Shown here piece after piece: positions 702 through 28,529 of a stretch of 34,597 nucleotides of DNA. Positions within the stretch are counted from its first letter, which is position 1. The number at the start of each line of letters is the position of its first letter. The DNA comes from Candidatus Woesearchaeota archaeon. GTDB taxonomy: Archaea; Nanobdellota; Nanobdellia; SCGC-AAA011-G17; UBA489. The notes under the pieces are model-generated. The model made no database searches. It was not told the origin of the DNA and saw only the letters and a program-made list of their open reading frames with translations. The stretch is taken from positions 2,709 to 37,305 of the forward strand of contig CAZDTM010000001.1 in assembly GCA_964508385.1 (NCBI GenBank), read 5' to 3'. Position numbers and translations under genes: made by a program.

Positions 702-1436
702 TCACTGCGAGGCTATCTTCTCTTTTATGGCTGTGGAAAAGAAGGCTGCAATAATGAGCAGAAGAAGCGGTTGGACATACGCAGACGCAGAAGAAGCATT
801 GCGAACGAGAAGATACAGGTACGCAATGGCGCCTGCCTGGAAAATGGCAAGAACACAGAGTAGCAGAACCCCTGGAATTTTTTTCAAGCTTTCAAGTGAG
901 AACAACTGGTAAAACGCCCTTGTTAACGACTCGTGAAGAGAAGTTGTCATCAGGGTTACCAACACGTATGCTATGGAGAACAGGACGAGGAAGGGCAAGA
1001 AAGAAGAAGGTGAAGGTATGGCCAGTGTTTGTGGCTTGAGAACATTAAAAATGATGGCGGTCATGACCAAGAAGAATCCTGCTGAGAGAAGCGCGTAGTG
1101 CAAAAAGAACTTTTTCTTTTTCTTTATTCTTTTTATTTCGGCATAGAGATGTCCCTGGAATGCTGCCCACAACAGATAGAACATGACTGGAAAACCAATG
1201 AAAGAAAGAAATTGGATACGATTCGTTGGACCCTCAATCTTTTTTAGCAGTTGATATGCCGGAAGGACATTATCCTCAGAAAGCTCTGCTTGCTGGCGAG
1301 CGTACTCTATTTCTGGACCGAGTGAACGTATTGTTTGCAGGTATGAGCCTACTTCAGAGCGTATGAAAAGAAGAAGGGCAAAAGACAGGGCTAAAAAAAC
1401 CAACTGAATGATTGTTAATTTTATTATCTTTTTCAT
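702..1436 (-). CDS. polytopic membrane protein, no recognised family (last gene of the giant-protein operon)
   Basis: 244 aa with about 6 hydrophobic segments and a KRIKKKKKF cytoplasmic loop. Its start lies 4 nt after the stop of the 1900-aa gene. Confidence 0.6.
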   Translation of the reverse strand: MKKIIKLTIIQLVFLALSFALLLFIRSEVGSYLQTIRSLGPEIEYARQQAELSEDNVLPAYQLLKKIEGPTNRIQFLSFIGFPVMFYLLWAAFQGHLYAEIKRIKKKKKFFLHYALLSAGFFLVMTAIIFNVLKPQTLAIPSPSSFLPFLVLFSIAYVLVTLMTTSLHESLTRAFYQLFSLESLKKIPGVLLLCVLAIFQAGAIAYLYLLVRNASSASAYVQPLLLLIIAAFFSTAIKEKIASQ

Positions 1437-1440
1437 TTGG

Positions 1441-4400
1441 CTACCCGGTCACATCAAAGGTAAGCCGCTCTTCGCGGGTTTGCACATTTCTAGCGGTTAC
1501 TTTGAAAGAGACTGTAACTTTGTCAACGTCTTCGCTGCCCTTGTTTACAACCAGGTCTTCTGGCAAGTTAAACGTCTTTTTTTCTCCGGGGCCTACACTT
1601 CCTTCAAGAACGTATCTTACGGTTACAAGCTCTCTTTCTGTGTCTCCCCACAATCCAAGCAAGCCTGGTCGTTCGTTAATTCCATAAACTACAAGGGAAA
1701 GCTGCAAATTGTTTATTATTTGATCGCCATTGTTCGTTATTGTAGACTGAATACCCTTAAGGACAACTGCGTCTTCTTTGTTTTCAAGTTTTTGCAGAGA
1801 AGAATGAGCTTCCACTATGGCCTCCTCTTTGATAAGAAGGGGTGGGCTGGTTTGCGCTGTTCCGCTTTGAGATTTGGTTTCTGCTGAAGCTTGCTCTCTT
1901 GCGCTTTCCTCTTTACTAATGGCTGCCGCCCGTAGTTTTTCTGCCAAAGACTGGTAAGCATCTCCCCTCACAAACAGTGCTGTGGCAGCAAGCTCTGGCT
2001 CAACAAATCCTGAGGAGAGCACCTCGTTCAGCCCAGTAATCGCTCTCTCAAGGGTGTTTTTTGCTGCGTCTAAGGATTGTGTTTTTCCCTCGGTGATCAA
2101 CTGGTTTGCGGCGTCTATTCTTCTCTGAATTTCGGTAGCATCATATACTGGAGCGATGTCTGCGCCAAGCTGTTGCTGCACTTGCTGAACTTTTTGGTTT
2201 AGGTCTCCGCTTAGCGCTTGCTGGTCTGCAAGATTTTTTATTTGGTTCAGGGCGCTTGGCCTGTACAACCAGCAGATACCTAAGTCTCGGTCACGATCAT
2301 CTTTTCCGCAGGTGCCTATCTCCTGCCAATTGTCGTTCGTTGTTCCCACGTCTGGATCGAAGCGCTCGCACTTTCTTAGGATTCCTGTTTGCAACAGCCC
2401 ACGATTCAAGGCACCAACGCCGATACCTGCCGCGCCAGCACCAGGAAATCCTTCGTATGGATACTGCGGAAGCCCGCCGGTCACTCCTTGATCTGTTGCT
2501 TCAAATGTGGTGATTCTTCCAGTTTCCGGCTGGCATTCTTCTTCAGAATCAATCTGCTTCATTGCTTCTGATTCGATGTACCTGTCATTGAGCATGTTGA
2601 GGAAATACGAAGAGCTTACTTTTCCAGAGCCGCATGCGGTCTGCACGCCGTAATTTGGCGAGACAATTTCAACACACATCTGATCGTAGCCGGAAGGAAG
2701 CTGCTGTGAGCAACTTTGAATGTCAAATCGTTTTGCCTGAAGTGGCCTGTTTCTCACCATGCCTATGTTGGGACATGTGATGTACACCGGCGGCAAGATA
2801 TGGCTCCCTTGGGGAGTCTTGCTCTGCAGATAAACTGAGAACCGAATGTCTTGGTTTTCGCCAGCATAGACTTGATAAAAGCTGTTGTAAATGCTGAGCG
2901 GTGTTGTCGTCACATCTGTGAAGGGGGCTTCTTCAAAGAATGCTGTAAACTGTGGCGGACTTTCTGGCCGCGTTACTTGCTGGAAGAGTTCACCTAAGAA
3001 CGGAGCTTTTCCATATACTGCGGCTTTGCATATCTCTCCACCGAGCTCTGGCAGCGCTTTACCAGAATACTGCGCGAACACGTTTTTTGCATAGGACTGC
3101 GTGAAATACTCTGTGTACCCTATGCTGTTGTCGACTGCCTTATCAAATGAGGAGTATTCGCCCCCGCCTTTTGCGTCACCGCCAAAGACTCCGCGCAGAA
3201 CATTCCCCAAGATTCCGCCCCTCACATTAAAGAGCGCAATGCCTTCCCTCCAGAGCATATCACAAATACCAAAGGAGCGAAGCTCGTCACAGAGACCAAT
3301 GGACTGGCCCTCTATTTTTGCGGTCGTCAAGCACTGGCGGTATCCTTTCAAGATTGAGTTCAAGTTGTTGAGACCAGCAATCACTCCAGTGATACAAACC
3401 GGCATGACAACATCCCCGCCGGTAACAACCCAGTTTGGGCTGCACAGGGCAACAGACCCGACTAGCCCTGTTTGCACGACGTTTTCCACCGGCCATTCCC
3501 CGCCAAAGTCGCAACGCGAGGTTGGGCAGATCACGGGGTCGCATGCGTTGTACATCATTCTGCACTCTCCGGGCGACATGAAGTCAATGCACTCTGTTGT
3601 TGTTGGCTGCGGCGCTGGAGTGTTTACGAATGTCCCCAGATTTGAGCAGTGGCCAATTAAATCGCCTGATCTGTAGGATTTACTTCCAATATTTCTATTC
3701 AGCGTATCTACACATGCCTTTCCTGCTGCGAGCGCTTTGTACGCGTTCAGAGCTTCTGGGTCAGCTCTTTTCTTAAAGGCGGAGAGAACATCATTCAATT
3801 CCCCCAACCGGACATCGGAATTTGCTCCAAGCTGGCTGTTTGATTCTGGACGCTCGAAGACGAGCTGTTTCTCAATGCGGCCTGAATCTGAGTACTCGTT
3901 TTCAATATAGAGACGAGAGTTCACGGCAAGCTGTTGAACCTTTCCTTTTGCCCTTCCAGAAGGCGTTGTTGACAGCAGATATTGTGGCTTTTCTTCCTGC
4001 GCCTTTGGTGATACGCGCAATCTCTGGCCGTCGATCATGAGGTCGTATTCTGCGGACTTAAACTTTGCTTCGTTCATACCAATCTGCTTCATCTCCTCAG
4101 TGATGTCTCTTGGCTCAAGACCTGGGAGCGTCAGCGCATACTTGTTTGTCTTTTTGTCATATGAGATGCGGATTGGGTTAATTTCTGCTGGGACGTACTT
4201 TCTAATGGTTCGATCCTCGAGCTTTTGAAGAGCAGTTACTTGCGCAGCAGGATTTTCTTTTTCTTTACTGAAGAAACTCTCAAGTTCCTGTCTCTCATAC
4301 TCTGCTTTGTATGCACTCAGAATCTCTCCGCGATTTTTATTGAATACTTCTGCAAAAGCGGCGTCTGTTGATGATTCATCAAGGCGAAGATAACTTTGCT

Positions 4401-7143
4401 GAATGATACTCTTTATTTCTTCTTTGACATTGTGACTGCCAACACTCTGAACATCGGTGAAGGCTCTTTCTTTGTTTCCATCGTGGAACGCCGTAAAGAG
4501 CTGCTGATTAATCTCCTTTTCTTTTAACTCTAAATTTTTGGCATAATAGTCGACAGCGTACACCTCATCGCCCGGGTGGGCTTCCGCGATTCTCTTCTTG
4601 ATGTACAGATCACGTCGGTCATCAAGGTACGATTCGTCTTTCAGCTCAGGGTAGAGTGCGCTCAGCTTGCTGTCTGCCTCGTTCATGGCCTGCTCCACGA
4701 GGCTTAGATCTTTTTGATAGTCATCAATATTGCTAAAGACGCATTCTTCAAAACTGTTGATCTCGCTCTTGCAATTCTCATTATCTAGCTGGTGACTAGA
4801 ATACCTCTGCCTGTAGACCTCGTTGACTTTTTCTCGTGCAATAGCAGATTTTCCACCAAACAAAAGGTTCTTTGCCGTCAACACAGCCTGCGTCGCAAAG
4901 CAGAACGTAATCCAGTACTTATGAATCTCAGATATTTTGGCGATGAGGTTGTCTAATTTGGCGATGAGTTCTTCTGTCTTTTTTATTTCATTGTCAATGC
5001 TGCTGCTGAAAAGAGGAAGATCAAATGGCCTCTTTTCTATTGGTATGTGGATAGTGTAGAATGATTCTGAAAATGCCTTCTCTGATGCGGGAGCGAGTAT
5101 GATGTAGACTTCGCGCTTCAAATTTGTTTTGAGCAATTCGGCGGGGAATGTATCTTTTGCATCCTTGATCGTGCGAGGGAGCATTACCTGTTTTCCTAGG
5201 CTCACTGATGCCCTGCGTTGAACCGTTGTTCCTTTTTCATCTTGTGCAGTACCAACAAGTTCGACTGAAGAATCTTTAATGCGGCTCACTTTCCAGGTAA
5301 TCATTCCGACGGTGCTCTGGCCAACTTGCTCGAGAGGCGTATCTTGGCGATAATCAAAGACGAGCGTTCCTACTTTAATTTTCGCTGTTGCCTGCTGATC
5401 GGTTGTTGGCTGCCTTACATCAAAGAGAATGAGCCCTGTCACTGAACCGTCTTCCTCCACTAGCTCTTCGCTTTGCGCCTGGAAAGCGAGAATATTTGTT
5501 GCGGCAGAGGTTAACTGCAAAAGTGTTTCGAGCTCTCGCTCTGTTACTCTTTCTGGATATTTCTGGCTTGCCTTAATTTTTTCGAATGCTTGCTGAGCAA
5601 GAAATGGATTGCGCTCGTAGAAGAGACTCATCCAGCCAATTCTGTACAAAGCATCAACACTCTGATTTGATGCAGGATATCCGTCAAGAATCTCCTGGTA
5701 TGACTGCTTGGCTCTTTCTACTGCTTGCTCAAAATTGATATCAGCAATCTTTATTACGCCCTCCCCGGTGCTGCTTACTCTCTTTTCAGATAAGACAAGC
5801 TGCAGCTCATTAATTTTTTTTACTAGGTCTTCCTTTTCTGCTTGGGCCCCGTTTACATTTTGATTCTCGAAGAGTGCGGTTGAGTAGGACTCATACGCCC
5901 TAAACACCTTAAAGAGGAGGTCCCTCATGAGGGCCTTTGTGAACTCTGTTACGGCTGGGTCTTTGATCTTCCTGATCGCTGGAATGACGATCGTCTCGTG
6001 ACATTTTTCAACTTCTTCTTTCTTGGAGAGCGTTCCACATGCAGCGTCGTACTGCGCAAGCAATTCATTGTAGATTGTATCTTGAACCCCCTGTTCTGGT
6101 GGTTGTACTCCTGTTTTGTCGCTGATTTCCCTTGGCTTTCCCTGATTTCCCGCAAGCTTCATTGTTCCTATCTTACCACCAATACTTCTCAGACGCACAA
6201 CTCGTTCACCTTCGGGCGTCATGGATACGTCATCAACGTACCACGATGACCCTGAGAAGAGGGGTTGTCCCGTCGTGAGGATTTTTTGCTCTGTTCGTCC
6301 ATTTCTCGTCACGAGCATGACTGCTTTTGTCGCCTCTGCTCTTACTTCTTTCACCGTAATGCTAAATCGATCAAAGAGCGGGCTGAACATGGACATGCCT
6401 GGTCTGTAGGCATCGATCGTTGAGGATGTTGACCCAGATTTTACTATCGTCGTGTGCACTTCGTTCAGTGCCTTATCATAAATGGTGAATGCTGCTTTGT
6501 CTGGCTCAATACTCTCTGCCCTGATGTAGCCCCCAAAGAAGCGATCGTCTTCCTTCGTTGGAATCCATTCGTCATGGCTTTTCTGTGTGAGCACCATTTC
6601 CTGAGGCCCGAAGCTTAGTCCCCTGGAGACATCAAAGTTGATTCTCGACTGCATATCGATGATGATCTCCTCCGGCACATCTTCTTCTCGCGGAATTCTT
6701 CCTATTCTGACTTCGAGGTATCCCATGTTCTCTGGGGAAAAGCTTTCTCCGCGCGGAGGATAGTGACGCGGCGGCAGGATCTGCGGAGCAGTCAGCCCTT
6801 CAGGCCTCGTTTTGATAGATACCGGAACTGAGGTGACACTCGTGATTTTTGGAATGGTGATGGTTGGATTTGTGAGCGTTCCTTTCAGAAGAACGAAGAC
6901 CGTTGCTCCCTGGTCCTCAATCAATTGCGCTGGAACGACCGTTGGCTGGTAGGAATCCACTTGAAGAGCAATGTCTTCTCCGATGACATTCCGCAGTGTT
7001 GGCTCCTGGCCAGAAAACGTACTCTCAATTGACCTTTCCACTTTCTTCAATTCGTTTTCAGGAATACGGACAAGCTGGGCGCTCACCAGCGGCATGCTCA
7101 CTATGAGCAGTATCATCGCCCATGACATGATTGTTGCTCTCAT
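1441..7143 (-). CDS. giant secreted surface protein (1900 aa), no recognised family
   Basis: Uninterrupted 5.7 kb ORF. Signal peptide MRATIMSWAMILLIVSMPLVSAQ. Charged helical middle region, a Cys-rich module (about aa 1140-1630) and a C-terminal beta-sandwich-like tail. The ATG overlaps the upstream stop (TAATG). Confidence 0.85.
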   Translation of the reverse strand: MRATIMSWAMILLIVSMPLVSAQLVRIPENELKKVERSIESTFSGQEPTLRNVIGEDIALQVDSYQPTVVPAQLIEDQGATVFVLLKGTLTNPTITIPKITSVTSVPVSIKTRPEGLTAPQILPPRHYPPRGESFSPENMGYLEVRIGRIPREEDVPEEIIIDMQSRINFDVSRGLSFGPQEMVLTQKSHDEWIPTKEDDRFFGGYIRAESIEPDKAAFTIYDKALNEVHTTIVKSGSTSSTIDAYRPGMSMFSPLFDRFSITVKEVRAEATKAVMLVTRNGRTEQKILTTGQPLFSGSSWYVDDVSMTPEGERVVRLRSIGGKIGTMKLAGNQGKPREISDKTGVQPPEQGVQDTIYNELLAQYDAACGTLSKKEEVEKCHETIVIPAIRKIKDPAVTEFTKALMRDLLFKVFRAYESYSTALFENQNVNGAQAEKEDLVKKINELQLVLSEKRVSSTGEGVIKIADINFEQAVERAKQSYQEILDGYPASNQSVDALYRIGWMSLFYERNPFLAQQAFEKIKASQKYPERVTERELETLLQLTSAATNILAFQAQSEELVEEDGSVTGLILFDVRQPTTDQQATAKIKVGTLVFDYRQDTPLEQVGQSTVGMITWKVSRIKDSSVELVGTAQDEKGTTVQRRASVSLGKQVMLPRTIKDAKDTFPAELLKTNLKREVYIILAPASEKAFSESFYTIHIPIEKRPFDLPLFSSSIDNEIKKTEELIAKLDNLIAKISEIHKYWITFCFATQAVLTAKNLLFGGKSAIAREKVNEVYRQRYSSHQLDNENCKSEINSFEECVFSNIDDYQKDLSLVEQAMNEADSKLSALYPELKDESYLDDRRDLYIKKRIAEAHPGDEVYAVDYYAKNLELKEKEINQQLFTAFHDGNKERAFTDVQSVGSHNVKEEIKSIIQQSYLRLDESSTDAAFAEVFNKNRGEILSAYKAEYERQELESFFSKEKENPAAQVTALQKLEDRTIRKYVPAEINPIRISYDKKTNKYALTLPGLEPRDITEEMKQIGMNEAKFKSAEYDLMIDGQRLRVSPKAQEEKPQYLLSTTPSGRAKGKVQQLAVNSRLYIENEYSDSGRIEKQLVFERPESNSQLGANSDVRLGELNDVLSAFKKRADPEALNAYKALAAGKACVDTLNRNIGSKSYRSGDLIGHCSNLGTFVNTPAPQPTTTECIDFMSPGECRMMYNACDPVICPTSRCDFGGEWPVENVVQTGLVGSVALCSPNWVVTGGDVVMPVCITGVIAGLNNLNSILKGYRQCLTTAKIEGQSIGLCDELRSFGICDMLWREGIALFNVRGGILGNVLRGVFGGDAKGGGEYSSFDKAVDNSIGYTEYFTQSYAKNVFAQYSGKALPELGGEICKAAVYGKAPFLGELFQQVTRPESPPQFTAFFEEAPFTDVTTTPLSIYNSFYQVYAGENQDIRFSVYLQSKTPQGSHILPPVYITCPNIGMVRNRPLQAKRFDIQSCSQQLPSGYDQMCVEIVSPNYGVQTACGSGKVSSSYFLNMLNDRYIESEAMKQIDSEEECQPETGRITTFEATDQGVTGGLPQYPYEGFPGAGAAGIGVGALNRGLLQTGILRKCERFDPDVGTTNDNWQEIGTCGKDDRDRDLGICWLYRPSALNQIKNLADQQALSGDLNQKVQQVQQQLGADIAPVYDATEIQRRIDAANQLITEGKTQSLDAAKNTLERAITGLNEVLSSGFVEPELAATALFVRGDAYQSLAEKLRAAAISKEESAREQASAETKSQSGTAQTSPPLLIKEEAIVEAHSSLQKLENKEDAVVLKGIQSTITNNGDQIINNLQLSLVVYGINERPGLLGLWGDTERELVTVRYVLEGSVGPGEKKTFNLPEDLVVNKGSEDVDKVTVSFKVTARNVQTREERLTFDVTG

Positions 7144-9140
7144 TACTCAAACCTCGGCGGACTCACTGATGGTGAGAGCTTTTTAATCATCTCGTCAATC
7201 TCTCCCAACTGGCTTTGCTTCGTTGGGGTGCTACCTCTTACGGTATAGAGCGTGAGTGAGCTTGCTGTTCCTACATCTTGACGTTGTGCTGTCCATCTGA
7301 TAGTCCCTCCGCCAGCAATCACTTCCTCGTATTCTGCTGCAGGAATTGTTTGCGATGTGCACGTTTTTTTCGTGACTCCTATACTACCTAAAATGCCATC
7401 GACGGGCATGTCTGCGCAGTGCTTAATTTTCTGCTGTTCAAGGCGGAACGGAGGATTACTCTGGACAATTAATTGAGACGTAATCTCATATGGCCCCGCA
7501 ATCAACTGCACTGTCGCTGGATCTTGAGAGCTTATGAAGGAGGCAACAAAGTCTTTTTCTAGGTGTCGCAGGGTGAACATCGCTTTTTCTTTTGGCTGAA
7601 CAGGCCGAATGATCCCGCCAGCGAGCACATTCACCTGCACTGGAAGCGTGTAGAGCGGCTCTAACACGAGGGGGATGGTGAGGTCCTCATTTGTTGATAG
7701 TGCTTGTTCTGCACGGAAGTATCCTTCTTTCTCGGCGATGAGCAGCCCATTCACGCAAAAAGGAGCGTCTGTCTTCAAGGTAGCAGAAAAGTCATCGGAC
7801 GTTGTCGCTCCAAGCGGGCAGGTAGTGGTCAGGCATTTTAATGTAATGGCTGCTCCCGGGATTGGCACGAGTGAAAAATCAGAACCAATGGCGAGGACTT
7901 CCACGCTTACTTTTCCGCCCGTGTTCCCGCAGATAGCTGATGACGCGTCTATCACGGGAATGCCTTCAAACTGATTTTTTCGTGGTTGGTTGTGCTGGAT
8001 CACTGCCATTATCCCAAACTGAAATGTATTTCCTTTGTCGTCGTTCACTTGCACCAACGCAGGAAACTGAATGTCGTACACGAAGTGGTACTGGTTCAAA
8101 CAGAAGAGGCTCTGCACAACTCTTGAGATTTCTGTTCCTGCTGCAAATTGCTTGCCGCTCACTATTTCTCCAGGCTCACCAACAATGTCGAGAGCAACTG
8201 GCCAGCGTGGCGAGTACATGAATGTAGCAGAGATTGTAGCATCTGCGTCCGCAATGCTCACCTGCTTGTACCTCTCCTTTGCCTGCATGAGCTGTCCCCC
8301 GCTTCCTTTGATTCGTATGAACGGCAGATTCAACTCAAGCACCCTCTTGAAATCCTGAATGACTCTTGATTTTTGCCAGGTTCTTGGTGAACACTCAAAA
8401 TCGACGCCTGAAGAAGGAAGCTCGTCGTAGGTAACAATCATGTCGCTCGCATATCTCTCCAGGAAGGTTTGCTCCTCCTCCGCCGTCATGATGGCTGTCG
8501 CCTGCTTATATAGCCTTCCCAGAGGGAATGTTTCTGAAGCGTAGAACTTCTTGATCGTGTAGGAAAAATCTTCTTTTTTGACTTCGACGGGAAAATCTGC
8601 GATCACATATACTTTCTCATCCGCTATGAAAACCATTGGTTCGAGCTCGTGGGGCTGAATGTTGTAGCCCTCTTCTTTGAGTTCCGCGTATTCATTGAGA
8701 CACAACGCTGTTTTTGTTTTCATGTACTTCGCAAACTCTTGCTCCATTGTTTCTCTTGTAGGAATGAATCTCTCCTCAACACCGTTTGCTTTTTTGTAAT
8801 ACCAGAAGGGAACAAGCAGAGTGCCATCGCCAAAGACGTCGATGCTATTGGAGAATGGATTTAGTGGGCCGCGAGGAAGGTCGTCTTCTGGTGCATCCAT
8901 GTGGCCTCCTTGCTGTGACAGCCTTTGTATTCCCTCCTTAAGAGCGAAGGTGAGACAGGATTCAGTGAAGAGATTTACTTTCTGGGCCTGTTGCGGGACT
9001 GTCTCTGCTTGCACCTGCTGCTGCAAAAGCTCTGATGACTTGATGAGGTCTTTTCCAAAGGTGACGGCAAGAATGCTGACGACTACAAGAAGGCCTAGAA
9101 TGACATACGCAGTTTGACCTCTTTTTTTCAGGTACTTCAT
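7143..9140 (-). CDS. large exported protein with a type-IV-pilin-like (class III) signal peptide
   Basis: 665 aa. The N-terminus MKYLKKRGQTAYVILGLLVVVSILAV has a basic n-region, an RG/Q cleavage-type motif and a hydrophobic helix. A CarboxypepD_reg-like beta region lies near aa 410-500. ATGA overlap with the upstream wHTH gene. Confidence 0.75.
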   Translation of the reverse strand: MKYLKKRGQTAYVILGLLVVVSILAVTFGKDLIKSSELLQQQVQAETVPQQAQKVNLFTESCLTFALKEGIQRLSQQGGHMDAPEDDLPRGPLNPFSNSIDVFGDGTLLVPFWYYKKANGVEERFIPTRETMEQEFAKYMKTKTALCLNEYAELKEEGYNIQPHELEPMVFIADEKVYVIADFPVEVKKEDFSYTIKKFYASETFPLGRLYKQATAIMTAEEEQTFLERYASDMIVTYDELPSSGVDFECSPRTWQKSRVIQDFKRVLELNLPFIRIKGSGGQLMQAKERYKQVSIADADATISATFMYSPRWPVALDIVGEPGEIVSGKQFAAGTEISRVVQSLFCLNQYHFVYDIQFPALVQVNDDKGNTFQFGIMAVIQHNQPRKNQFEGIPVIDASSAICGNTGGKVSVEVLAIGSDFSLVPIPGAAITLKCLTTTCPLGATTSDDFSATLKTDAPFCVNGLLIAEKEGYFRAEQALSTNEDLTIPLVLEPLYTLPVQVNVLAGGIIRPVQPKEKAMFTLRHLEKDFVASFISSQDPATVQLIAGPYEITSQLIVQSNPPFRLEQQKIKHCADMPVDGILGSIGVTKKTCTSQTIPAAEYEEVIAGGGTIRWTAQRQDVGTASSLTLYTVRGSTPTKQSQLGEIDEMIKKLSPSVSPPRFE

Positions 9141-9328
9141 CTTTTTTTCACCAGAACAATTTTTGACCCGCCGAATTTCTGTACGTGAGCTTTTCTTTTC
9201 TTTATGAGCGCGTCCACAAGGTCAAAAACCGTTGTATTCTTGATGCTAAAGTGCTTTGCGATCATACTAAAATTGACGAACTCTTTTGATTGGATAAATG
9301 AAAGGAGCTCCTCTTCAGAAGGAATCAC
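9137..9328 (-). CDS. small winged-helix DNA-binding-like protein (first gene of the operon)
   Basis: 63 aa with a GTG start and GAGGT 7 nt upstream. The pattern LSFIQSKEFVNFSMIAKHFSIKNTTVFDLVDALIKKRK resembles a minimal wHTH. Confidence 0.5.
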   Translation of the reverse strand: MIPSEEELLSFIQSKEFVNFSMIAKHFSIKNTTVFDLVDALIKKRKAHVQKFGGSKIVLVKKR

Positions 9329-9360
9329 ATACTCTACCTCTTTTTCCGGCTTTTTCCAAG

Positions 9361-9374
9361 CTTTTTATCATAAA
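9361..9374 (-). promoter_or_regulatory. candidate TATA box of the four-gene operon
   Basis: The minus strand reads TTTATGATAAAAAG about 40 nt upstream of the GTG at 9328. Confidence 0.3.
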
Positions 9375-9395
9375 CAAAGGCTTAAACTAGCTTTT

Positions 9396-10478: not shown

Positions 10479-10564
10479 AGCCACCGAAGGGATTTGAACC
10501 CCCGACCCCGAGTTTTTTTGGTGCTTTACAAAACTCGTGCTCTACCAGCCTGAGCTACGGTGGC
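10479..10564 (-). tRNA. tRNA-Thr (anticodon UGU) with a putative 12-nt intron at the canonical 37/38 position
   Basis: The reverse complement gives acceptor GCCACCG/CGGTGGC with discriminator U, and D arm GCTC-AGGCTGGTA-GAGC. Anticodon stem CGAGT/ACTCG encloses 19 nt (TTTGTA + AAGCACCAAAAA + A). T arm GGGGG-TTCAAAT-CCCTT. Confidence 0.75.
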
Positions 10565-12272: not shown

Positions 12273-13376
12273 TTATTCTAAGAATTCCTTATTCTTAATC
12301 TTTTCAGGCAAATACTTTTCACTGATGAAACTGATTCCTTTTGTTGATAAGGCCTGAATTTCTACTTTTCCATTCATCTCTTTCATCATTTTGAATTGAC
12401 GTTGCCAGTCTTTATTATTCTTAAACCAGTCATACTCCGATATTTGCTTGATTCTAGCCATATCCTGCTCGGTTAATTTGATTATGTGCTTTTTGAGGTC
12501 ATACTTGATTATGTCGTCCATTGTTATACCGACATACTTCACATTGGGGATTGTTAATCTTTCAGCTGCGTGAGCTAATGCAATTGAGCCATACTTAATT
12601 ACAGAATAAATATAGGCACCAAAAATATCTCCGTCACAGAGAACGTAAATAGGCAAACTTTTTTCTTCTGAAAGCCTCTGTAAAAGTCGTCTAATACCCC
12701 GCGTTGTTTGGCCTTGTGAGGTGACCAGGAGACAATTATTCTTCTGCCAGAATTTATCCTCGTTCAATCGTTCAAAAATTGCTGCTTTCTCCATGTAGAG
12801 AACGTACTTCGCATCGACTTTCTTGAATTTGATCTCGTCAGTAATAGAAGGAACAGAGTATCCGCCGCGTCCGAGCTTAGAACAATCGATAGTATCTCCA
12901 CTGTCTTCAAGGACAAGGCTGCCAACCATGCTTCCCATCTTGTTCGCAGAAACATGCAGTTGCTCACGGGAGAGATCGGCGATGACCTCCAAGTCTTCAA
13001 TCACTTTGTCGCTTTCTGTCTGTTCGTCGACAATGTTGACATTTGTGCCTGGGATGGTGCGCTTGGCCATATAGAAAACGTCTCTGAGATGTTCGTGTTT
13101 TCCTGTGTCGAGAAGCTCTTTTTTGAGAATGCGGGCGACTTCAATGGTTTGGAGGAATTTTTTGGCGTGAGCAACATTGAAGAAACTGCGGGTGCCCATT
13201 TTGTCGCCGAGCTTCAACGTCTTTGATTTTTCGTCGAAGACAACGTTGCTGAGGTTACGAAGAGCAAACTCGATTTCTGGATTTTTTCCTTTCTCGATAT
13301 CATGGACTATCTTGGCGCCAAGCTTCTTCAGTTTTTCAGATCCTTCGTTACTTTCCTTTGCCATTTTCTTCTCCAT
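12273..13376 (-). CDS. top6A: DNA topoisomerase VI subunit A (Spo11 homologue)
   Basis: 367 aa. Has the HLRDVFY catalytic-Tyr region and Toprim motifs (VLYMEKAAIF, LLVTSQGQTTRG, LCDGDIFG). Overlaps the top6B 3' end by 29 nt. Confidence 0.9.
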   Translation of the reverse strand: MEKKMAKESNEGSEKLKKLGAKIVHDIEKGKNPEIEFALRNLSNVVFDEKSKTLKLGDKMGTRSFFNVAHAKKFLQTIEVARILKKELLDTGKHEHLRDVFYMAKRTIPGTNVNIVDEQTESDKVIEDLEVIADLSREQLHVSANKMGSMVGSLVLEDSGDTIDCSKLGRGGYSVPSITDEIKFKKVDAKYVLYMEKAAIFERLNEDKFWQKNNCLLVTSQGQTTRGIRRLLQRLSEEKSLPIYVLCDGDIFGAYIYSVIKYGSIALAHAAERLTIPNVKYVGITMDDIIKYDLKKHIIKLTEQDMARIKQISEYDWFKNNKDWQRQFKMMKEMNGKVEIQALSTKGISFISEKYLPEKIKNKEFLE

Positions 13377-16300
13377 TTGCTTGCGCCAAAATATCCGACA
13401 TGCCCTTCTTTAATATTTTTTGAAGTTCTGTAACAATTATCTCTTTTTTCTTGCCAGTTAAATCTGCAAGCGCGTCTGCTACTTCTGGAATGTATTTTTC
13501 GAATAAGGAAACACGTTCTTTTGCTTCTCGCGCCCGGACATGTTGCCTTATGTAAATGTTCAGTTTGCGCCCACATTCTTGAACTGCGAGTTTGATTTCC
13601 TTGATGATCTCGTCATAATGAGCAACGGCATCTTTTGCTTCTGATGTAAACGGAACCCAAACAGACGCCATATGCACCACAATGGCAACTGGCCCTACAG
13701 GGAGGTTGTCTCCAGATTGTTGCAGCCCGTATGCCTTCCAGTTGGTTTCTTGCACTGCGCGCGTGACCGAACATGCTCCTTGTTGATACAGAAGAGGAAC
13801 CCGGTTCGCGAAGCGAAGAAGTCTGACTGCTCCCTCTTTATCCACTGATCCGCCATAAGCGATTGCTACTTCGATAAGGAACGGAAAACCGCGGTAGACA
13901 CTTGGTTGCCTTGACACGGCAGTGTAAAAATCTGCGGCAATTTCCTTTTTTAGGCCCCTCACTAGCGCTTCTTCACCAATCGGACTTAAGCAGTCGGTTG
14001 GGGGGGCGATGACTTTTACTTCCTGCATTGCTTTGAACAAACGTTCCGCCTCTTGGTGTGTTACTGAGTGCGGTTTGTAATCTGCCTGTAATAATGCCTT
14101 CTCGCACATTTCTTTTGCTGTTCCTGCACCAATACGAGAGAATTCAGTTGTTAAGAATCCTTGAAGCGTGCGTGAAGATGTTTCTTCCATCATACGAATA
14201 AGCGTTCCTACCTCAATGCCGTACGGGTGGGGCTTGATCTCTTTTGCTTCGGCCGGCAATTGATTGATAACGCGCGGGAACTCTATTTTTTCGTTGTCTG
14301 GAGTCAGCAATGTGAAACGAGCGTGAGGATTAACAATTGCTGCTTGTTTGATAAATTCATCGACAGACTGTTTTCCTTTCTGGTATTTTCCTTCAAGTTC
14401 TAATTCCACCTTTGTTCCGTGCTCTTTTTTCCACTCTATCTCCTTTTCTGCGAGGATCTTTGGCTCGTTTCTTTTTGTGTCAATTTGCAGTTCGTAATAA
14501 TGGGCTGGTTTTTTTGGATCAGTGCGAGAGGTAATTTTTGTTACTTTGCCTGTTGTGAGCTGGGCATACAGAACAGATGCAGAAATTCCTATTCCCTGCT
14601 GCCCGCGACTGTTATGGCATGCAATCCCACCGATACCGCCAACAAAGTTTTCACACCCAGGAACCGAAAGATCGTAAACATAGTCATAACCTTGGGTTAT
14701 CATTTCTACTTCTCTGATTTGCACAAAAGCTAAATCTCCGGGGTCGAGTTCTTGTGCTACAACCCCCAACACATTTCCAGAGTTATACTCAATGAGTCTT
14801 CTCTTCTTTCTTCCGATACTTCGAGCATAGACATGTGAACCATCTAGAGCTGAACCATAGATGCTCACTTTGTGAGTCATTGTTTCGATTTTTCCAAGTC
14901 CTTTTTCTAAGCGGGATCCATACGAAGAAGTGATTCCGTTCATTAAAAATAGGTATTGCAGGCCTATAGCCAGGTTTTTGCTCTTTGTTCCAAACATGAG
15001 GCTATTTCTGTCTTTGACTTTGTGACCGTCTCCCTGACAGTAACCATCAATAAAGTGCCACCTAAGATCCTCATTGACTCTAAAAACAAACTCAGGAATT
15101 CTCTTATTAAATGCTCCTTTGCCGCATACATTTTTTATAAACTTTACAAAAAGATTGTTGAATAGTTTAACGCGGATGCTTCTTTCCCGTAGTTCAGTAC
15201 TGCTTCCCAAACCAAGTATTTGGGCGAAAGAAAGCACTTCGTTGATTAATGCTTGTTCATGTTTTCCAAATGTTAGTCCCAGCTGTCTTAAGCCTGGATG
15301 TCCTTCTGCAATGTAAACTCCTAGAAATCTCAAGAATTCTTTGCTAAGCGAAAGTGTAACTGGTAACTGGTGCTTTCGGCCGTGATAATAAGTAACAATC
15401 TGCCCTTCTTTGACCTCATGTATCAAGTTTAACTTGCATACCATCTGAAGCGGCAAAAATCCTTTTGTGATGTACTGCTTCATGCTGTCATCTAGTACAT
15501 CTAAAGAAACACCGCCCAAGTTTACTCGATAAAATCTTCTACTCTTATCAACTTTTTTATGGACAATTTCTGCGCTATCCCTCAATTTTTTTACAATGTC
15601 TCGAATGCCGTATACATAGAACCAATTTCTTCTTATGTCTGTGTAGGAGAGGTACTCCAGTACATTTATCTCATAAATGTTTTCTACTTCTGGTAGCTTG
15701 CTGGGCACAACAATATAATCTCCCTTCTTCAGTGATCGTGCTTCAACGCTTTCAACTTTCTCTGTTTTTTGGTTATAGGTGAATAAGCTGTGACAACCAG
15801 TTACTTTTATTTCTTTGTTATATTCTGTCCTTATCTTCAAGATCTCATTTTCTCGTTTGTGTCTAATGACATGACTTACTCTACGCAGGTGATACTTCTT
15901 TGAAAGGGGATCAAATGCTGGAACTTGGATGTCTAAGAAAGATATATTCTGTTCCTCCTTTTCCTTTCCTAAGAAATGGTCTACAAACTCTCCAATGGGG
16001 ATTAGTTCGACTTTGTTATTGCGTTTGATGAAAATTGGTTCATCTGCTGTTAACGATTGCCTCAAATGATGAAATTTGGAACCATAGAGCAGCTTTCCAA
16101 AGACTCGTGGAATTTGCTCTTTGACAATGCCCGGGCCATTGTCTTCTACGCTGACATGGTATCTGTTCTCGGCTGTTTGCTTGATGTGAACCAAGATCTC
16201 GGGTAGTACTTTCATTTCTGCACAGGCGTCGAGAGAGTTATCAACTGCTTCTTTCACAGTCATCAACAATGCGCGCATGGGGTTATCAAAACCAAGAAGA

Positions 16301-16413
16301 TGGCGATTTTTTGCGAAGAATTCAGAAACGGAAATCTCTTTTTGCTGTTTTGCCAACTCTTCCGCTTTTATTGTGTGCGCTGTCGCTTCCTTTTCTTTCA
16401 TCTGATGTGGCAT
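13348..16413 (-). CDS. top6B: DNA topoisomerase VI subunit B, interrupted by an intein
   Basis: GHKL motifs EAVDNSLDA, DNGPGI and SRGQQGIG. 1021 aa with the intein, about 539 aa without it. The TATA-like box at 16423-16431 suggests the real (leaderless) start may be the second in-frame ATG at 16401. Confidence 0.9.
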   Translation of the reverse strand: MPHQMKEKEATAHTIKAEELAKQQKEISVSEFFAKNRHLLGFDNPMRALLMTVKEAVDNSLDACAEMKVLPEILVHIKQTAENRYHVSVEDNGPGIVKEQIPRVFGKLLYGSKFHHLRQSLTADEPIFIKRNNKVELIPIGEFVDHFLGKEKEEQNISFLDIQVPAFDPLSKKYHLRRVSHVIRHKRENEILKIRTEYNKEIKVTGCHSLFTYNQKTEKVESVEARSLKKGDYIVVPSKLPEVENIYEINVLEYLSYTDIRRNWFYVYGIRDIVKKLRDSAEIVHKKVDKSRRFYRVNLGGVSLDVLDDSMKQYITKGFLPLQMVCKLNLIHEVKEGQIVTYYHGRKHQLPVTLSLSKEFLRFLGVYIAEGHPGLRQLGLTFGKHEQALINEVLSFAQILGLGSSTELRERSIRVKLFNNLFVKFIKNVCGKGAFNKRIPEFVFRVNEDLRWHFIDGYCQGDGHKVKDRNSLMFGTKSKNLAIGLQYLFLMNGITSSYGSRLEKGLGKIETMTHKVSIYGSALDGSHVYARSIGRKKRRLIEYNSGNVLGVVAQELDPGDLAFVQIREVEMITQGYDYVYDLSVPGCENFVGGIGGIACHNSRGQQGIGISASVLYAQLTTGKVTKITSRTDPKKPAHYYELQIDTKRNEPKILAEKEIEWKKEHGTKVELELEGKYQKGKQSVDEFIKQAAIVNPHARFTLLTPDNEKIEFPRVINQLPAEAKEIKPHPYGIEVGTLIRMMEETSSRTLQGFLTTEFSRIGAGTAKEMCEKALLQADYKPHSVTHQEAERLFKAMQEVKVIAPPTDCLSPIGEEALVRGLKKEIAADFYTAVSRQPSVYRGFPFLIEVAIAYGGSVDKEGAVRLLRFANRVPLLYQQGACSVTRAVQETNWKAYGLQQSGDNLPVGPVAIVVHMASVWVPFTSEAKDAVAHYDEIIKEIKLAVQECGRKLNIYIRQHVRAREAKERVSLFEKYIPEVADALADLTGKKKEIIVTELQKILKKGMSDILAQANGEENGKGK
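14611..16056 (-). mobile_element. intein (482 aa) with LAGLIDADG homing-endonuclease domain in Top6B
   Basis: Extein junctions are ...KFHHLRQ / SLTADEPIFI... and ...GGIACHN / SRGQQGIG. Block B is KVTGCHSLF. LAGLIDADG-like motifs are LRFLGVYIAEGH and HFIDGYCQGDGH. C-terminal HN is followed by Ser+1. Confidence 0.85.
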
Positions 16414-20841: not shown

Positions 20842-21525
20842 CTACAGGCGCTTGTAGTGCCCTGGTTTAAACTGATAGATCTCTCCTTCGTTCACCAGGG
20901 CGTCAACAAGGGTCATGAGGGCCTGGCGCGAGATCATGAGCTTTTGCTCGAGATCAACGAGTGAGATCCCTTCTTCAGCACCAGTGATGAGCGTGAGAAG
21001 TTGCTTTGTGGAGGAAGAAGGCTCTTTTGCTGGTAACGTGGAGGCCCCTTCCTTGTGATCGTCTTGTGTTGGTCGTTGCCCTTCTTGGATTGTTATGCTT
21101 CTGAGGGACACTTGTTTTGAGAGCGCCAGCATCCGTGAGAGCAGCCAATGGGGGTCATCGAGAATCTTCACGACTTCTGCGGTCATGTACCTCTCATCAT
21201 TGTATTCCTTCACAAGACCACAGCAGTTGACTAGATCCCCACTTTTTACTTCCTGTATTCTCTTGAGATCTTCTTTGAATGCTTTGATGCGAATCGTACC
21301 TGTGCCATCATCGATCGTTAGCGAACCAAAAGAGCCATCCTGATTGATGTAACTGTCTACTGCGGTTCCGATAAGATTAACTCGCACGACGTTCTTTCCC
21401 CTTACTGCAAATGTACCAGAAAAAGCATCTTGGTCTCCGACAACGTAGGCGCTACCGAGCACGTCGGCGATCCAAAGCTGGTGAGCAGTCTGTCGTTGTT
21501 CCATGTTTAAATCTTTGATATCCAT
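20842..21525 (-). CDS. RPA32/Stn1-like OB-fold protein with a C-terminal winged helix
   Basis: 227 aa. The OB core is VRVNLIGTAVDSY...LTIDDGTGTIRIKAF...GDLVNCCGLVKEYNDERYM. The C-terminal wH is ISLVDLEQKLMISRQALMTLVDALVNEGEIY. Overlaps the mcm 3' end by 19 nt. Confidence 0.6.
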   Translation of the reverse strand: MDIKDLNMEQRQTAHQLWIADVLGSAYVVGDQDAFSGTFAVRGKNVVRVNLIGTAVDSYINQDGSFGSLTIDDGTGTIRIKAFKEDLKRIQEVKSGDLVNCCGLVKEYNDERYMTAEVVKILDDPHWLLSRMLALSKQVSLRSITIQEGQRPTQDDHKEGASTLPAKEPSSSTKQLLTLITGAEEGISLVDLEQKLMISRQALMTLVDALVNEGEIYQFKPGHYKRL

Positions 21526-25800: not shown

Positions 25801-26781
25801 CTATTCTTCCTTTTGCAGAAACCACGGCGTCAGCTCCACTTTCTTGAGCATCCCGTTGGATTCGTAGTTGAGGACATTTTTTCTCTTCAGTGTTTCCAGA
25901 ATGCGGGCAAGAGAGGTTTTTGGGATGTGGGTTGCGTGCCGTATTCGTGCTTGCGTGGACTTTCCTTCATTTTCCAGGAGGTATTCAACAACCTGCCGTT
26001 CGCGTTCGTTCAGTGTTTGCAAGATCGTTGATATCCTGCTGGTCATTGCTTTGTCACGCTCTTGTTCCCCCCTCCCTGTTCCTGCCTTTGCTGGAGAGCG
26101 GGACCGAGCTCTTTTGAGAACAAACCACATTCCGGCCATCATGCCTGCCAATACTACAAGAATGGCGGCGAGTGAAAAACTGTCACGAAGTTTGATCTTC
26201 ACACGAGCTGTTTCTCCTTGCTGAACCTGTATGGTTTTTGATCCTGCTTTACTCTCCTTTTCCGCATGAACTGTGCAGGTTCCTACTGGAAGCAGAGAGG
26301 TAAATGAGCCGTACTTGTCTGTTTGGTCTCCATACTCGATGCCATACTCTTTTTCACACTGGATGGATACTCTTGCGTGGGGAACGCGGTTCTCTAGACT
26401 GTCGACAACAACAAGATCAAGCGTCGAGACTGGCAGGAGGTATACTGTTTCCGTGGTGTTGAGATCTTTGCTTTCAAGGCGCAAAAAAAAGTCTTTTCCT
26501 TCAGTGGACGGAACATCAACAGTGATGCTGAGGTCTGTGTCGTGAGGAAGCACCAAGATGATCTCGTTATCCGCTGCATACTCTGTGATGGTAAGTATCT
26601 TGTTTGTTGATTTGTCGAGTATCCTTGTAGAGACGATGACTTCGTCAAGAGGCTTCTTTTCAAATGCATCAAAAAGAAGCAGCTTTACTTCTTTCTCTTG
26701 GTCTATCGAAAAAACTGAAGAGGCATATGCGAAGATCATGCCTACGAATATTATCCAGCATATCGTTCCTTTGTGTGCCAT
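25801..26781 (-). CDS. membrane-anchored transcriptional regulator (extracellular beta domain, TM segment, cytoplasmic wHTH)
   Basis: 326 aa. N-terminal signal/anchor ICWIIFVGMIFAYASSVFS. CarboxypepD_reg-like stretch (ARVSIQCEKE..TDKYGSFTSLLPVGTCTVHAEK). TM segment LAAILVVLAGMMAGMWFVL. MarR/ArsR-like wHTH (ERERQVVEYLLENEGKSTQARIRHATHIPKTSLARILETLKRKNVL). Confidence 0.65.
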   Translation of the reverse strand: MAHKGTICWIIFVGMIFAYASSVFSIDQEKEVKLLLFDAFEKKPLDEVIVSTRILDKSTNKILTITEYAADNEIILVLPHDTDLSITVDVPSTEGKDFFLRLESKDLNTTETVYLLPVSTLDLVVVDSLENRVPHARVSIQCEKEYGIEYGDQTDKYGSFTSLLPVGTCTVHAEKESKAGSKTIQVQQGETARVKIKLRDSFSLAAILVVLAGMMAGMWFVLKRARSRSPAKAGTGRGEQERDKAMTSRISTILQTLNERERQVVEYLLENEGKSTQARIRHATHIPKTSLARILETLKRKNVLNYESNGMLKKVELTPWFLQKEE

Positions 26782-28324: not shown

Positions 28325-28390
28325 CTTTCTTCCTCCACGATAGTGCTTGCGCACTTTTTTGATCATCTTGCGCTGTAGAGAAGTGCAGCA

Positions 28391-28497: not shown

Positions 28498-28529
28498 GCT
28501 TTTTCTCGTTGAATAGCAGAAAAAATAGC

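What the first reader, a model, noticed from the sequence alone, without database searches (positions are those of the whole stretch)
702..9374. Orphan four-gene cell-surface operon built around a 1900-aa secreted giant protein
Seen in sequence:
- A 63-aa wHTH-like gene (GTG start, GAGGT 7 nt upstream), a 665-aa gene, a 1900-aa gene and a 244-aa polytopic membrane gene share one strand.
- Their junctions are ATGA (9137-9140), TAATG (7141-7145) and a 4-nt gap (1437-1440). A TATA-like box lies at 9361-9374.
- This makes one unit of about 8.6 kb, a quarter of the window, embedded among core replication and translation genes.
- The giant has a cleavable-type signal peptide and a beta-rich N-terminal third.
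- Its middle is long, charged and helical, with one hydrophobic segment (YWITFCFATQAVLTAKNLLFGG, about nt 4850-4915).
- It ends with a Cys-rich module and an Ig/CARDB-like tail.
- I recognise no catalytic motif or named family in any of the four proteins.

Inference: this is a dedicated, possibly self-regulated surface appendage, adhesion or host-contact system. Giant surface proteins are known from small-genome episymbiotic archaea. I cannot map this gene set (regulator, pilin-like exported protein, giant, membrane partner) to any described system.
Basis: partly seen in the sequence, partly recalled or inferred. Interest (0 to 1): 0.8.

Follow-up and report, generated by a model that had tools for sequence, protein, structure and literature searches.

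The report
Conserved Woesearchaeota giant surface-protein operon
The four genes are real and form a conserved operon, but it is not an orphan: it is the local copy of a gene cluster found across hundreds of uncultured tiny archaea (Woesearchaeota/Pacearchaeota), built around a giant secreted protein that in some relatives carries enzymes that cut bacterial cell walls, so it most likely mediates contact with a partner or prey cell.

Summary
Four minus-strand genes (63, 665, 1900 and 244 aa) sit at the stated coordinates, with the stated 4-nt and 1-nt overlaps and 4-nt gap.

"Orphan" is wrong.
- The giant's Cys-rich core (aa ~1185-1630) defines a family with 1081 cluster representatives.
- It occurs in at least 561 species-level genomes; the 80 best loci, which were the ones inspected, are all labelled Woesearchaeota, Pacearchaeota or Nanoarchaeia.
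- In 65 of 65 loci that include the giant's 5' end, a 665-type gene lies directly upstream.
- The 6-TM gene follows the giant in 39 loci, and the small wHTH gene leads the cluster in 25.

The member in MAG AR20 carries an SLT domain. This is therefore very probably the "large murein lytic-transglycosylase protein" family already noted in the DPANN literature. The window copy has no hydrolase domain.

In 84 relatives' tails Pfam finds unrelated murein-hydrolase families in roughly one in six. The 665-aa partner has a conserved K[KR]G-Q-V-T prepilin-type (EppA-like) N-terminus followed by Ig-like domains. No Pfam, PDB or Foldseek match explains the core.

Best reading: a surface host-contact and cell-wall-breaching complex. 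It is a new member of a known but uncharacterised kind. Interest is moderate.

The parts
9329..9395 (-). Intergenic leader upstream of the operon. It holds the A/T-rich TATA-like box (9361-9374) and GAGGT (9336-9340), 7 nt before the GTG start.
   Evidence: Sequence read; ORF borders. Promoter function is inferred, not tested.
9137..9328 (-). Gene 1: a 63-aa winged-helix (FeoC/MarR-like) protein with a GTG start. Its stop overlaps the start of gene 2 (ATGA).
   Evidence: Pfam FeoC E 3.8e-4 at the cut-off, MarR E 0.017. Homologues lie directly upstream of the 665-type gene in 25 loci.
7143..9140 (-). Gene 2: a 665-aa exported protein with a prepilin-type (class III-like) N-terminus, an alpha/beta region and C-terminal Ig-like beta-sandwich domains.
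   Evidence: AF2 model pLDDT 78.5. Foldseek hits only CnaB/adhesin/pilin-type Ig domains. No Pfam or PDB sequence match.
9048..9140 (-). N-terminus of the 665-aa protein: leader MKYLKKRG, then QTAYVILGLLVVVSILAVTF. Family consensus is M-x-K-[KR]-[G/A/S]-Q-[VIA]-T-x-F-[VI]-I.
   Evidence: Same form as the EppA-type sites KGQV/KGQL/KGQI of Methanococcus maripaludis pilins (PMC4371748).
1441..7143 (-). Gene 3: the 1900-aa secreted giant protein. Its start overlaps the stop of gene 2 by 1 nt.
6154..6996 (-). Giant aa 50-330: conserved beta-rich N-terminal domain of unknown fold.
   Evidence: Conservation. No PDB or Pfam match for its profile.
4654..5196 (-). Giant aa 650-830: conserved middle block. 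It includes the hydrophobic helix aa 743-764 (nt 4852-4917) with invariant C748, N759 and G764.
   Evidence: The AF2 model places it in a 70-residue helix.
2254..3591 (-). Giant aa 1185-1630: the family-defining Cys-rich core. It carries the motif NACDPVICPxSRC and has 19 of its 20 Cys invariant or nearly invariant in the 13-sequence set. It has two small-residue-rich hydrophobic helices (aa ~1220-1260) and an internal Ig-like sandwich (aa ~1398-1510).
   Evidence: No PDB sequence hit. No Foldseek hit better than E 0.01 in PDB or BFVD.
1444..1878 (-). Giant aa 1756-1900: lineage-specific C-terminal tail. It sits where relatives carry swappable modules, including murein hydrolases.
   Evidence: No family hit. 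No homologue in about 250 relatives. Tail variability.
702..1436 (-). Gene 4: a 244-aa membrane protein with six predicted TM segments and no conserved catalytic-type residues.
   Evidence: Homologues lie directly downstream of the giant in 39 loci. No Pfam or NCBIfam match.

Best explanation
This is the local copy of a lineage-wide Woesearchaeota/Pacearchaeota cell-surface module that mediates contact with another cell, probably a bacterium.

**Proposed working**
1. The small wHTH protein, the pilin-like 665-aa protein, the giant and the 6-TM protein are made from one transcript. Gene order and the tight junctions are shown; the single transcript is inferred.
2. The giant leaves the cell by the Sec route. 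The signal peptide is shown; export is inferred. It has no membrane anchor of its own.
3. It is held at the surface by its conserved modules (N-terminal domain, middle block, Cys-rich core). These would bind the 665-aa partner and, in Woesearchaeota, the 6-TM protein. The 665-aa partner would either sit in the membrane by its N-terminal helix or be processed like an EppA-type pilin and built into a short fibre. All of step 3 is inferred.
4. Long helical linkers hold out a fast-changing tail. In roughly one in six relatives that tail is a murein hydrolase that would open the partner's cell wall. The fusions are shown; the activity is inferred.

The window copy has no hydrolase. In this organism the complex would act as an adhesin or contact scaffold only.
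For: **Gene order and junctions**
- A 665-type gene lies directly upstream of the giant in 65 of 65 loci whose giant 5' end is present. The TM gene follows in 39 loci and the wHTH gene leads in 25.
- The 665 stop and the giant start are -8 to +2 nt apart in 46 of 62 loci.

**Family size and range**
- 1081 representatives, 935 of them at E<=1e-30.
- At least 561 species genomes; the 80 best loci, which were the ones inspected, are all labelled Woese-/Pacearchaeota or Nanoarchaeia.

**Export signals**
- Hydrophobic N-termini in the giant and the 665-aa protein.
- The conserved K[KR]G|QVT motif, compared with EppA substrates.
- Ig-like adhesin-type domains in the 665 model.

**Functional hint from fusions**
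- SLT in the AR20 member (E 1e-22).
- SLT in 38 of 247 members, 7 times before and 32 times after the core.
- Amidase_3, M23, NlpC/P60 and DUF1615.
- Among 84 tails: SLT 9, 3D 2, DPBB_1 1, M23 1, NlpC/P60 1, Peptidase_M15_4 1.

**Literature**
- The same inference is drawn for the large SLT proteins of these lineages in PMC8204110 and PMC9723730.
Against: - The window protein and more than 80% of relatives carry no recognisable hydrolase. The fusion argument therefore speaks for the family, not directly for this copy.
- No physical link between the four proteins has been shown.
- No pilus assembly ATPase, platform or prepilin peptidase gene lies in the window or in the five annotated loci.
- Position +5 after the putative cleavage site is Phe, not the Glu described for EppA substrates.
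- The core has no structural match, and its model is only of medium confidence (pLDDT 66).
- Near-universal conservation next to housekeeping genes would fit a structural envelope role equally well.
Confidence: 0.55

Rival explanations
1. Structural cell envelope (S-layer-like) pair. The giant would form the outer layer of the cell. The 665-aa protein, and the 6-TM protein where present, would be its membrane-anchored stalk. This is functionally comparable to the SlaA/SlaB two-gene S-layer of Sulfolobales. The hydrolase modules would be occasional add-ons.
For: - The pair is present in every locus examined and in at least 561 species genomes.
- It is vertically inherited, syntenic with LSm, L37e and S8e, and shows no compositional anomaly.
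- One protein is secreted without an anchor and the other has an N-terminal helix and Ig-like domains.
- I found no S-layer protein described for these lineages in the papers read.
Against: - There is no sequence or fold similarity to any solved S-layer protein.
- Much of the giant is long helix and linker of variable length rather than stacked beta domains.
- Enzyme cargo of at least six unrelated murein-hydrolase families is inserted at varying positions, which is hard to fit into a regular lattice.
- The window holds other candidate envelope proteins with CARDB and CarboxypepD_reg domains.
Confidence: 0.2
2. Antibacterial weapon of the polymorphic-toxin type. A conserved delivery scaffold would carry exchangeable C-terminal effectors. 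It would be used to kill or lyse bacteria for competition or 'vampiristic' feeding, rather than for stable attachment.
For: - The architecture is a conserved N-terminal part and core with a hypervariable tail (median 354 aa, range 0-1883).
- The tails hold SLT, 3D, DPBB, M23, NlpC/P60, M15, amidase and GDSL modules.
- The literature proposes predatory use of the large transglycosylases (PMC9723730). Archaeal peptidoglycan hydrolases that kill bacteria have been reported (PMC12352652).
Against: - Most tails, including the window's, have no recognisable effector.
- The downstream gene is a conserved 6-TM protein, not a tail-matched immunity gene.
- There is one conserved chromosomal locus rather than the multi-copy, mobile cassettes typical of polymorphic toxins. 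Copy number per genome was not measured.
Confidence: 0.15
3. Chance ORFs or a horizontally acquired island (virus, plasmid or integrative element) unrelated to the host's biology.
For: - The unit occupies a quarter of the window.
- Three of its four proteins match no named family.
Against: - Each protein has many homologues in the same order in related chromosomes.
- The locus lies in conserved synteny with LSm, L37e and S8e.
- GC content matches the rest of the window.
- No integrase or repeat borders are evident among the annotated neighbours.
Confidence: 0.01

Closest known systems
Large extracellular murein lytic-transglycosylase-domain proteins of Woesearchaeota and Pacearchaeota (fam00969 of Castelle et al. 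2021, PMC8204110; the AR20 protein of Castelle et al. 2015; 'large lytic murein transglycosylase' of Vigneron et al. 2022, PMC9723730)
   Same: - The window giant shares the Cys-rich core, N-terminal domain and middle block with the AR20 chromosome's member (L044, CP010426.1). That member carries an SLT domain at aa 385-487.
- Size range and lineage restriction are the same.
   Different: - The window protein has no SLT or other hydrolase domain.
- My census shows SLT is an accessory in about 15% of members and sits at variable positions. The family is defined by the core, not by the enzyme.
- Identity with 'fam00969' is inferred from the description.
EppA-type archaeal type IV pilins (Methanococcus maripaludis EpdB-EpdE)
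   Same: A short basic leader ends in K/R-G and is followed by Gln at +1 and then about 20 hydrophobic residues. KGQV in the 665 family compares with KGQV/KGQL/KGQI in Epd pilins.
   Different: - The protein is 620-670 aa with a large alpha/beta part and Ig-like domains.
- Position +5 is Phe, not Glu.
- No pilus assembly genes lie nearby.
- Processing is untested.
Bacterial pilus-tip adhesin arrangements (PilY1 with minor pilins; modular pilins of Streptococcus sanguinis); my own knowledge, analogy only
   Same: A large Sec-exported adhesin is encoded next to, and would be presented by, a pilin-like protein.
   Different: No sequence or fold relationship was detected. No filament has been shown.
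SPEARE giant proteins of Nanohaloarchaeota (my own knowledge; giant proteins of nanohaloarchaea are discussed in PMC10266531, listed)
   Same: Giant secreted proteins of DPANN archaea thought to act in host contact.
   Different: They come from a different lineage and have different domain content. No homology was seen in any search here, but a direct comparison was not run.
SlaA/SlaB S-layer operon of Sulfolobales (my own knowledge)
   Same: A two-gene unit encoding one very large secreted protein and a smaller membrane-anchored partner with beta-sandwich domains.
   Different: - There is no sequence or structure match.
- The anchor is N-terminal here.
- The giant is largely helical between its conserved modules.

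Membership tests
Woesearchaeota/Pacearchaeota giant surface-protein family (literature: large SLT-domain proteins) | Cys-rich core module (NACDPVICPxSRC, about 20 conserved Cys) | tested here: met
   The window's aa 1185-1630 aligns with 12 homologues at 32-49% identity and 53 columns are invariant. The profile finds 1081 representatives with the core at about aa 1100-1700.
Woesearchaeota/Pacearchaeota giant surface-protein family (literature: large SLT-domain proteins) | Conserved N-terminal domain and middle block, with an N-terminal signal peptide and a length of 1700 aa or more | tested here: met
Woesearchaeota/Pacearchaeota giant surface-protein family (literature: large SLT-domain proteins) | Murein lytic transglycosylase (SLT/GH23) domain, the feature by which the literature recognised the family | tested here: not met
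   There is no SLT hit in Pfam at E<=1 or in an iterative search seeded with the AR20 SLT. Only 38 of 247 members have one.
Woesearchaeota/Pacearchaeota giant surface-protein family (literature: large SLT-domain proteins) | Restriction to Woesearchaeota/Pacearchaeota genomes | tested here: met
   All 80 best loci of at least 561 positive species genomes carry such labels. The window context is an archaeal chromosome.
Class III (prepilin-type) signal peptide / type IV pilin-like protein (665-aa protein) | Short basic leader ending in [KR]-[GA], followed by Gln at +1 (EppA type) | tested here: met
   The window has MKYLKKRG|QTAY. Among the 65 family members, 46 have G-[Q/E] at this site (43 with Gln) and most of the others have A-Q or S-Q. 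Motif reference: PMC4371748.
Class III (prepilin-type) signal peptide / type IV pilin-like protein (665-aa protein) | Hydrophobic helix of about 20 residues directly after the site, continuing as a long alpha-1 helix | tested here: met
   The hydropathy segment spans aa 7-35. The AF2 helices span aa 8-45 and 50-76.
Class III (prepilin-type) signal peptide / type IV pilin-like protein (665-aa protein) | Glu at +5, described for EppA substrates and bacterial pilins | tested here: not met
   Position +5 is Phe or Tyr in 43 of 46 aligned members.
Class III (prepilin-type) signal peptide / type IV pilin-like protein (665-aa protein) | Cleavage by a prepilin peptidase and assembly by a PilB/PilC-type machine | not testable with these tools
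   No such genes lie in the window or in the five annotated loci. The rest of the genome is not available.
Winged-helix transcription regulators (FeoC/MarR-like) (63-aa protein) | Match to a wHTH family model above its curated cut-off | tested here: inconclusive
   FeoC scores 21.0 bits against a cut-off of 21 (E 3.8e-4). MarR, DnaD_N and Mnd1 score below their cut-offs. DNA binding is untested.
Archaeal S-layer proteins (SlaA/SlaB type) | Sequence or fold similarity to a known S-layer protein | tested here: not met
   Nothing was found in Pfam or NCBIfam, in PDB sequences or in the Foldseek PDB search.
Polymorphic toxin systems | Conserved N-terminal scaffold with exchangeable C-terminal effector domains | tested here: met
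   This holds at family level. The window tail itself has no recognisable effector.
Polymorphic toxin systems | Tail-matched immunity gene immediately downstream | tested here: not met
   The downstream gene is the same conserved 6-TM family whatever the tail.

The most novel reading that the evidence does not exclude
The strictly linked pair would be a previously unrecognised archaeal contact machine, distinct from any known secretion or adhesion system. A pilin-like protein with an EppA-type signal would prime or carry the giant. The giant's structurally unmatched Cys-rich core has two conserved, small-residue-rich hydrophobic helices (aa ~1220-1260). These would insert into the partner cell's membrane, after local wall digestion, to open the conduit through which these reduced archaea obtain lipids and metabolites.
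Probability: 0.1. Interest if true: 0.85.

Novelty: new member of a known kind. Interest (0 to 1): 0.5.

Why it matters
Woesearchaeota and Pacearchaeota are among the most widespread uncultured archaea, and nobody knows how, or on whom, they live.

This locus is one copy of what looks like their most conserved lineage-specific surface module. Three things were not found in the papers searched here:
- The family is defined by a fold-less Cys-rich core rather than by the transglycosylase domain.
- The giant is always paired with a prepilin-type protein.
- Murein hydrolases of at least six unrelated families are swapped into its tail.

Together these give a concrete, testable handle on host contact. 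They point to which proteins to localise by cryo-ET or immunolabelling and which partners to co-express. They also show which relatives (those with SLT, M23 or amidase tails) argue for bacterial hosts or prey.

For this particular window the gain is smaller. It is a typical, hydrolase-less member.

Tried and rejected
**Searches that found nothing**
- Pfam and NCBIfam on all four proteins found no family apart from the borderline wHTH hit. The same held for five TM-family and five 665-family relatives at E<=0.1 and for 29 N-terminal domains.
- PDB sequence searches with the single proteins and with the profiles of the core, the 665 family and the N-terminal domain found nothing meaningful.
- The Foldseek search of the 665 model returned only generic Ig/CnaB domains with TM-scores near 0.1.
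- The Foldseek searches of the giant aa 640-1780 model against PDB and BFVD gave no hit at E<0.001, only an ApaG/CARDB-like sandwich.
- Profile-profile comparison of the giant's N-terminal domain and core with the 665 family showed they are unrelated.
- The supplement search for fam00969 and Module 98 found nothing in the held files. One cited paper (PMC6509191) is not held.
- Rfam found only the three tRNAs.

**Technical limits**
- A third word-indexed protein search with the core profile returned only 7 short fragments and added little.
- One large alignment failed and was repeated with fewer sequences.

**Ideas rejected**
- Mobile-element or chance origin, because of the conserved synteny.
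- The downstream TM protein as an enzyme or sortase. It has only three conserved residues and none of catalytic type.
- A degenerate SLT remnant in the window giant.


Full report
**1. The observation**

The window has four ORFs on the minus strand: 9137..9328 (63 aa, GTG start), 7143..9140 (665 aa), 1441..7143 (1900 aa) and 702..1436 (244 aa).

The 67-nt gap upstream holds GAGGT 7 nt before the GTG start. It also holds the A/T-rich TTTATGATAAAAAG at 9361-9374.

The surrounding genes are chromosomal archaeal housekeeping genes:
- LSm, L37e and tRNAs.
- GrpB, Topo VI A and B (the latter with an intein) and MCM (with an intein).
- aIF2-beta, RPA, TBP, RFC and an Ile-tRNA synthetase-type enzyme.

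GC content of the unit (0.44-0.51) does not stand out.

The giant has a hydrophobic N-terminus and 26 cysteines, 20 of them between aa 1144 and 1624. The segment YWITFCFATQAVLTAKNLLFGG is aa 743-764. The 244-aa protein has six hydrophobic segments.

Pfam and NCBIfam give nothing above threshold for the three larger proteins. The 63-aa protein gets a FeoC-type winged-helix hit exactly at the cut-off. The 'Ig/CARDB-like tail' could not be confirmed.

**2. Not an orphan**

The giant has full-length homologues at 30-36% identity. The 665-aa protein has more than 20 homologues of nearly the same length, some labelled Nanoarchaeota or Nanoarchaeia.

Three blocks of the giant are conserved: aa 50-330, aa 650-830 and above all aa 1185-1630. 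The linkers between them and the tail after aa ~1750 vary.

A profile of the core (alignment A1) was searched without a word index against 1.84 billion representatives. It found 1081 proteins at E<=0.001 and 935 at E<=1e-30. The core nearly always sits at about residue 1100-1700 of an 1800-2400-aa protein.

In species-representative genomes the core patterns hit at least 561 genomes. All 80 best loci are labelled Woesearchaeota, Pacearchaeota or Nanoarchaeia. They include the complete MAG chromosomes CP010426.1 (AR20) and CP066683.1.

**3. Gene linkage**

In five annotated contigs the 620-660-aa gene directly precedes the giant, often near LSm, L37e, S8e, S3Ae or TFB genes.

I then searched the 85 held loci with local profiles:
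- Every locus in which the giant's 5' end is present (65 of 65) has a 665-type gene directly upstream on the same strand.
- The stop of that gene and the start of the giant lie -8 to +2 nt apart in 46 of 62 cases. A 4-nt overlap occurs in 27.
- The 6-TM gene follows the giant in 39 loci, and the small wHTH gene precedes the 665-type gene in 25.
- Neither was found in the loci labelled Pacearchaeota.

The conserved core of the system is therefore the pair. The four-gene form is typical of a large Woesearchaeota subset that includes AR20 and the window.

**4. What the parts look like**

The 665-aa family starts M-x-K-[KR]-[G/A/S]-Q-[VIA]-T-x-F-[VI]-I, followed by about 20 hydrophobic residues. 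This has the form of the processing sites of Methanococcus maripaludis pilins EpdB-E (KGQV, KGQL, KGQI). The dedicated peptidase EppA needs the +1 Gln of those sites (PMC4371748). The +5 Glu mentioned there is absent, because the family has Phe.

The AF2 model of the 665-aa protein (22 sequences, pLDDT 78.5) shows three parts: long N-terminal helices, an alpha/beta region, and beta-sandwich domains from about aa 405. Foldseek matches only the sandwiches, to CnaB-type adhesin and pilin domains, with low TM-scores.

The AF2 model of giant aa 640-1780 (46 sequences, pLDDT 66) shows, in order:
- a 70-residue helix that contains the hydrophobic segment;
- helical bundles;
- a beta domain;
- a helical Cys-rich part;
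- a well-predicted Ig-like sandwich (aa ~1398-1510);
- a disordered Gly/Pro-rich loop;
- long C-terminal helices.

Neither PDB nor BFVD gives a match at E<0.001. PDB sequence searches with profiles also find nothing.

The 6-TM family has only three well-conserved residues (P83, Q94, Y32), which argues for a structural rather than catalytic role.

**5. Functional hint from fusions**

Among the 18 longest members, Pfam finds Amidase_3, SLT, Peptidase_M23, NlpC/P60, DUF1615, ankyrin and LRR domains.

The AR20 member has an SLT domain at aa 385-487 (E 1e-22), between the N-terminal domain and the middle block. An iterative search seeded with that domain finds SLT in 38 of 247 members, 7 times before and 32 times after the core. 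It finds none in the window protein.

Among the tails of 84 loci Pfam finds the following:
- SLT in 9.
- 3D in 2.
- DPBB_1, M23, NlpC/P60, Peptidase_M15_4 and a GDSL esterase in 1 each.
- Transglutaminase-like, TIG and ankyrin domains as well.

Tail length ranges from 0 to 1883 aa, with a median of 354. The window tail has no homologue among the relatives.

So roughly one relative in six carries an enzyme that cuts bacterial murein. These enzymes come from at least six unrelated families and sit in the variable parts of the protein. This is the strongest clue to function. It concerns the family, not the window copy itself.

**6. Relation to the literature**

Castelle et al. [quoted passage not shown] It is specific to Woesearchaeota and Pacearchaeota, was earlier noted in three genomes including AR20, and was proposed to attach to bacterial cell walls (PMC8204110).

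Vigneron et al. 2022 speak of large lytic murein transglycosylases and a predatory lifestyle (PMC9723730). A 2025 study finds peptidoglycan hydrolase homologues particularly prominent in Nanoarchaeota (PMC12352652).

The AR20 chromosome's member of the present family carries the SLT domain. The window giant is therefore very probably a hydrolase-less member of that known family. I could not obtain the family's sequences to prove identity.

I found no paper in the held library that describes three things:
- the conserved core;
- the obligate pilin-like partner;
- the four-gene cassette.

**7. Mechanism and rivals**

The best-supported reading (confidence 0.55) is a surface complex for contact with another cell. 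The giant is exported by Sec. It is held by the pilin-like partner and, where present, by the 6-TM protein. It projects a fast-changing tail that in some lineages opens the bacterial wall.

What is shown:
- gene order and tight junctions;
- the export-type N-termini;
- the motif;
- the domain fusions;
- the distribution.

What is inferred:
- the single transcript;
- processing of the 665-aa protein;
- the protein-protein contacts;
- localisation;
- enzymatic activity.

The rivals are an S-layer-like envelope pair (0.2) and a polymorphic-toxin-like antibacterial weapon (0.15). Each is compatible with part of the data. An island or chance origin is excluded by synteny.

**8. Verdict**

The locus is a new member of a known but uncharacterised kind.

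Interest is moderate (0.5). The family is a lineage hallmark with no structural precedent and a newly defined partner, but the giant itself has been noticed before and this copy is a typical one.

Noticed in passing
window 13348-16413 (-) and 21507-25103 (-): Both the Topo VI B subunit (1021 aa) and MCM (1198 aa) are interrupted by inteins with LAGLIDADG homing-endonuclease domains (Intein_splicing E 7e-23 and 4e-16).
   Followed up: no
window 10479-10564 (-): ARAGORN could not assign an anticodon to this 86-nt tRNA ('tRNA-???', anticodon 'gt'). Rfam scores it as tRNA at 53.5 bits. It may have a long variable arm or an intron.
   Followed up: partly
window 17436-19736 (-): A 766-aa ORF among translation genes has no Pfam match at E<=0.001.
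   Followed up: no
window 25801-26781 (-) and 26858-28660 (-): Two further likely envelope proteins lie here. One is 326 aa with CarboxypepD_reg plus a DUF7343 HTH-like domain. The other is 600 aa (TTG start) with a CARDB domain. The 600-aa ORF overlaps the upstream Ile-tRNA synthetase-type ORF by about 130 nt, so its true start is probably further downstream.
   Followed up: no
protein P0047 (NCBI MEK7201576.1), 96% identical to window giant aa ~1150-1660: A partial protein nearly identical to the window's core is deposited as 'Patescibacteria group bacterium'. All other family members are archaeal, so that 1.5-kb contig is probably mis-binned.
   Followed up: partly
L002 18103-19341; L001 21906-23117: In close relatives, IS605-type OrfB/TnpB and DDE transposase genes sit between or beside the cassette and the L37e/LSm genes. 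The synteny is therefore locally disturbed by insertion sequences.
   Followed up: no
L008 3370-4161; L053 14230-15108: In two relatives a second, partial match to the 665-family profile (E 1e-17 to 1e-21) lies downstream of the giant and TM genes. This may be a paralogous Ig-domain protein.
   Followed up: no
L048 4297-6303 and 7691-12766: In this relative the 665-type gene and the ORF holding the giant's core are about 1.4 kb apart, not abutting. This could be an insertion, a frameshift in the giant's 5' part or an assembly problem.
   Followed up: no
P0114 aa 3482-3682 and 3553-3668: The Pfam DUF1615 region in the tail of this 3779-aa relative is also hit by the SLT profile built from the AR20 domain. 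DUF1615 may therefore be a lysozyme-like (SLT-related) fold.
   Followed up: partly
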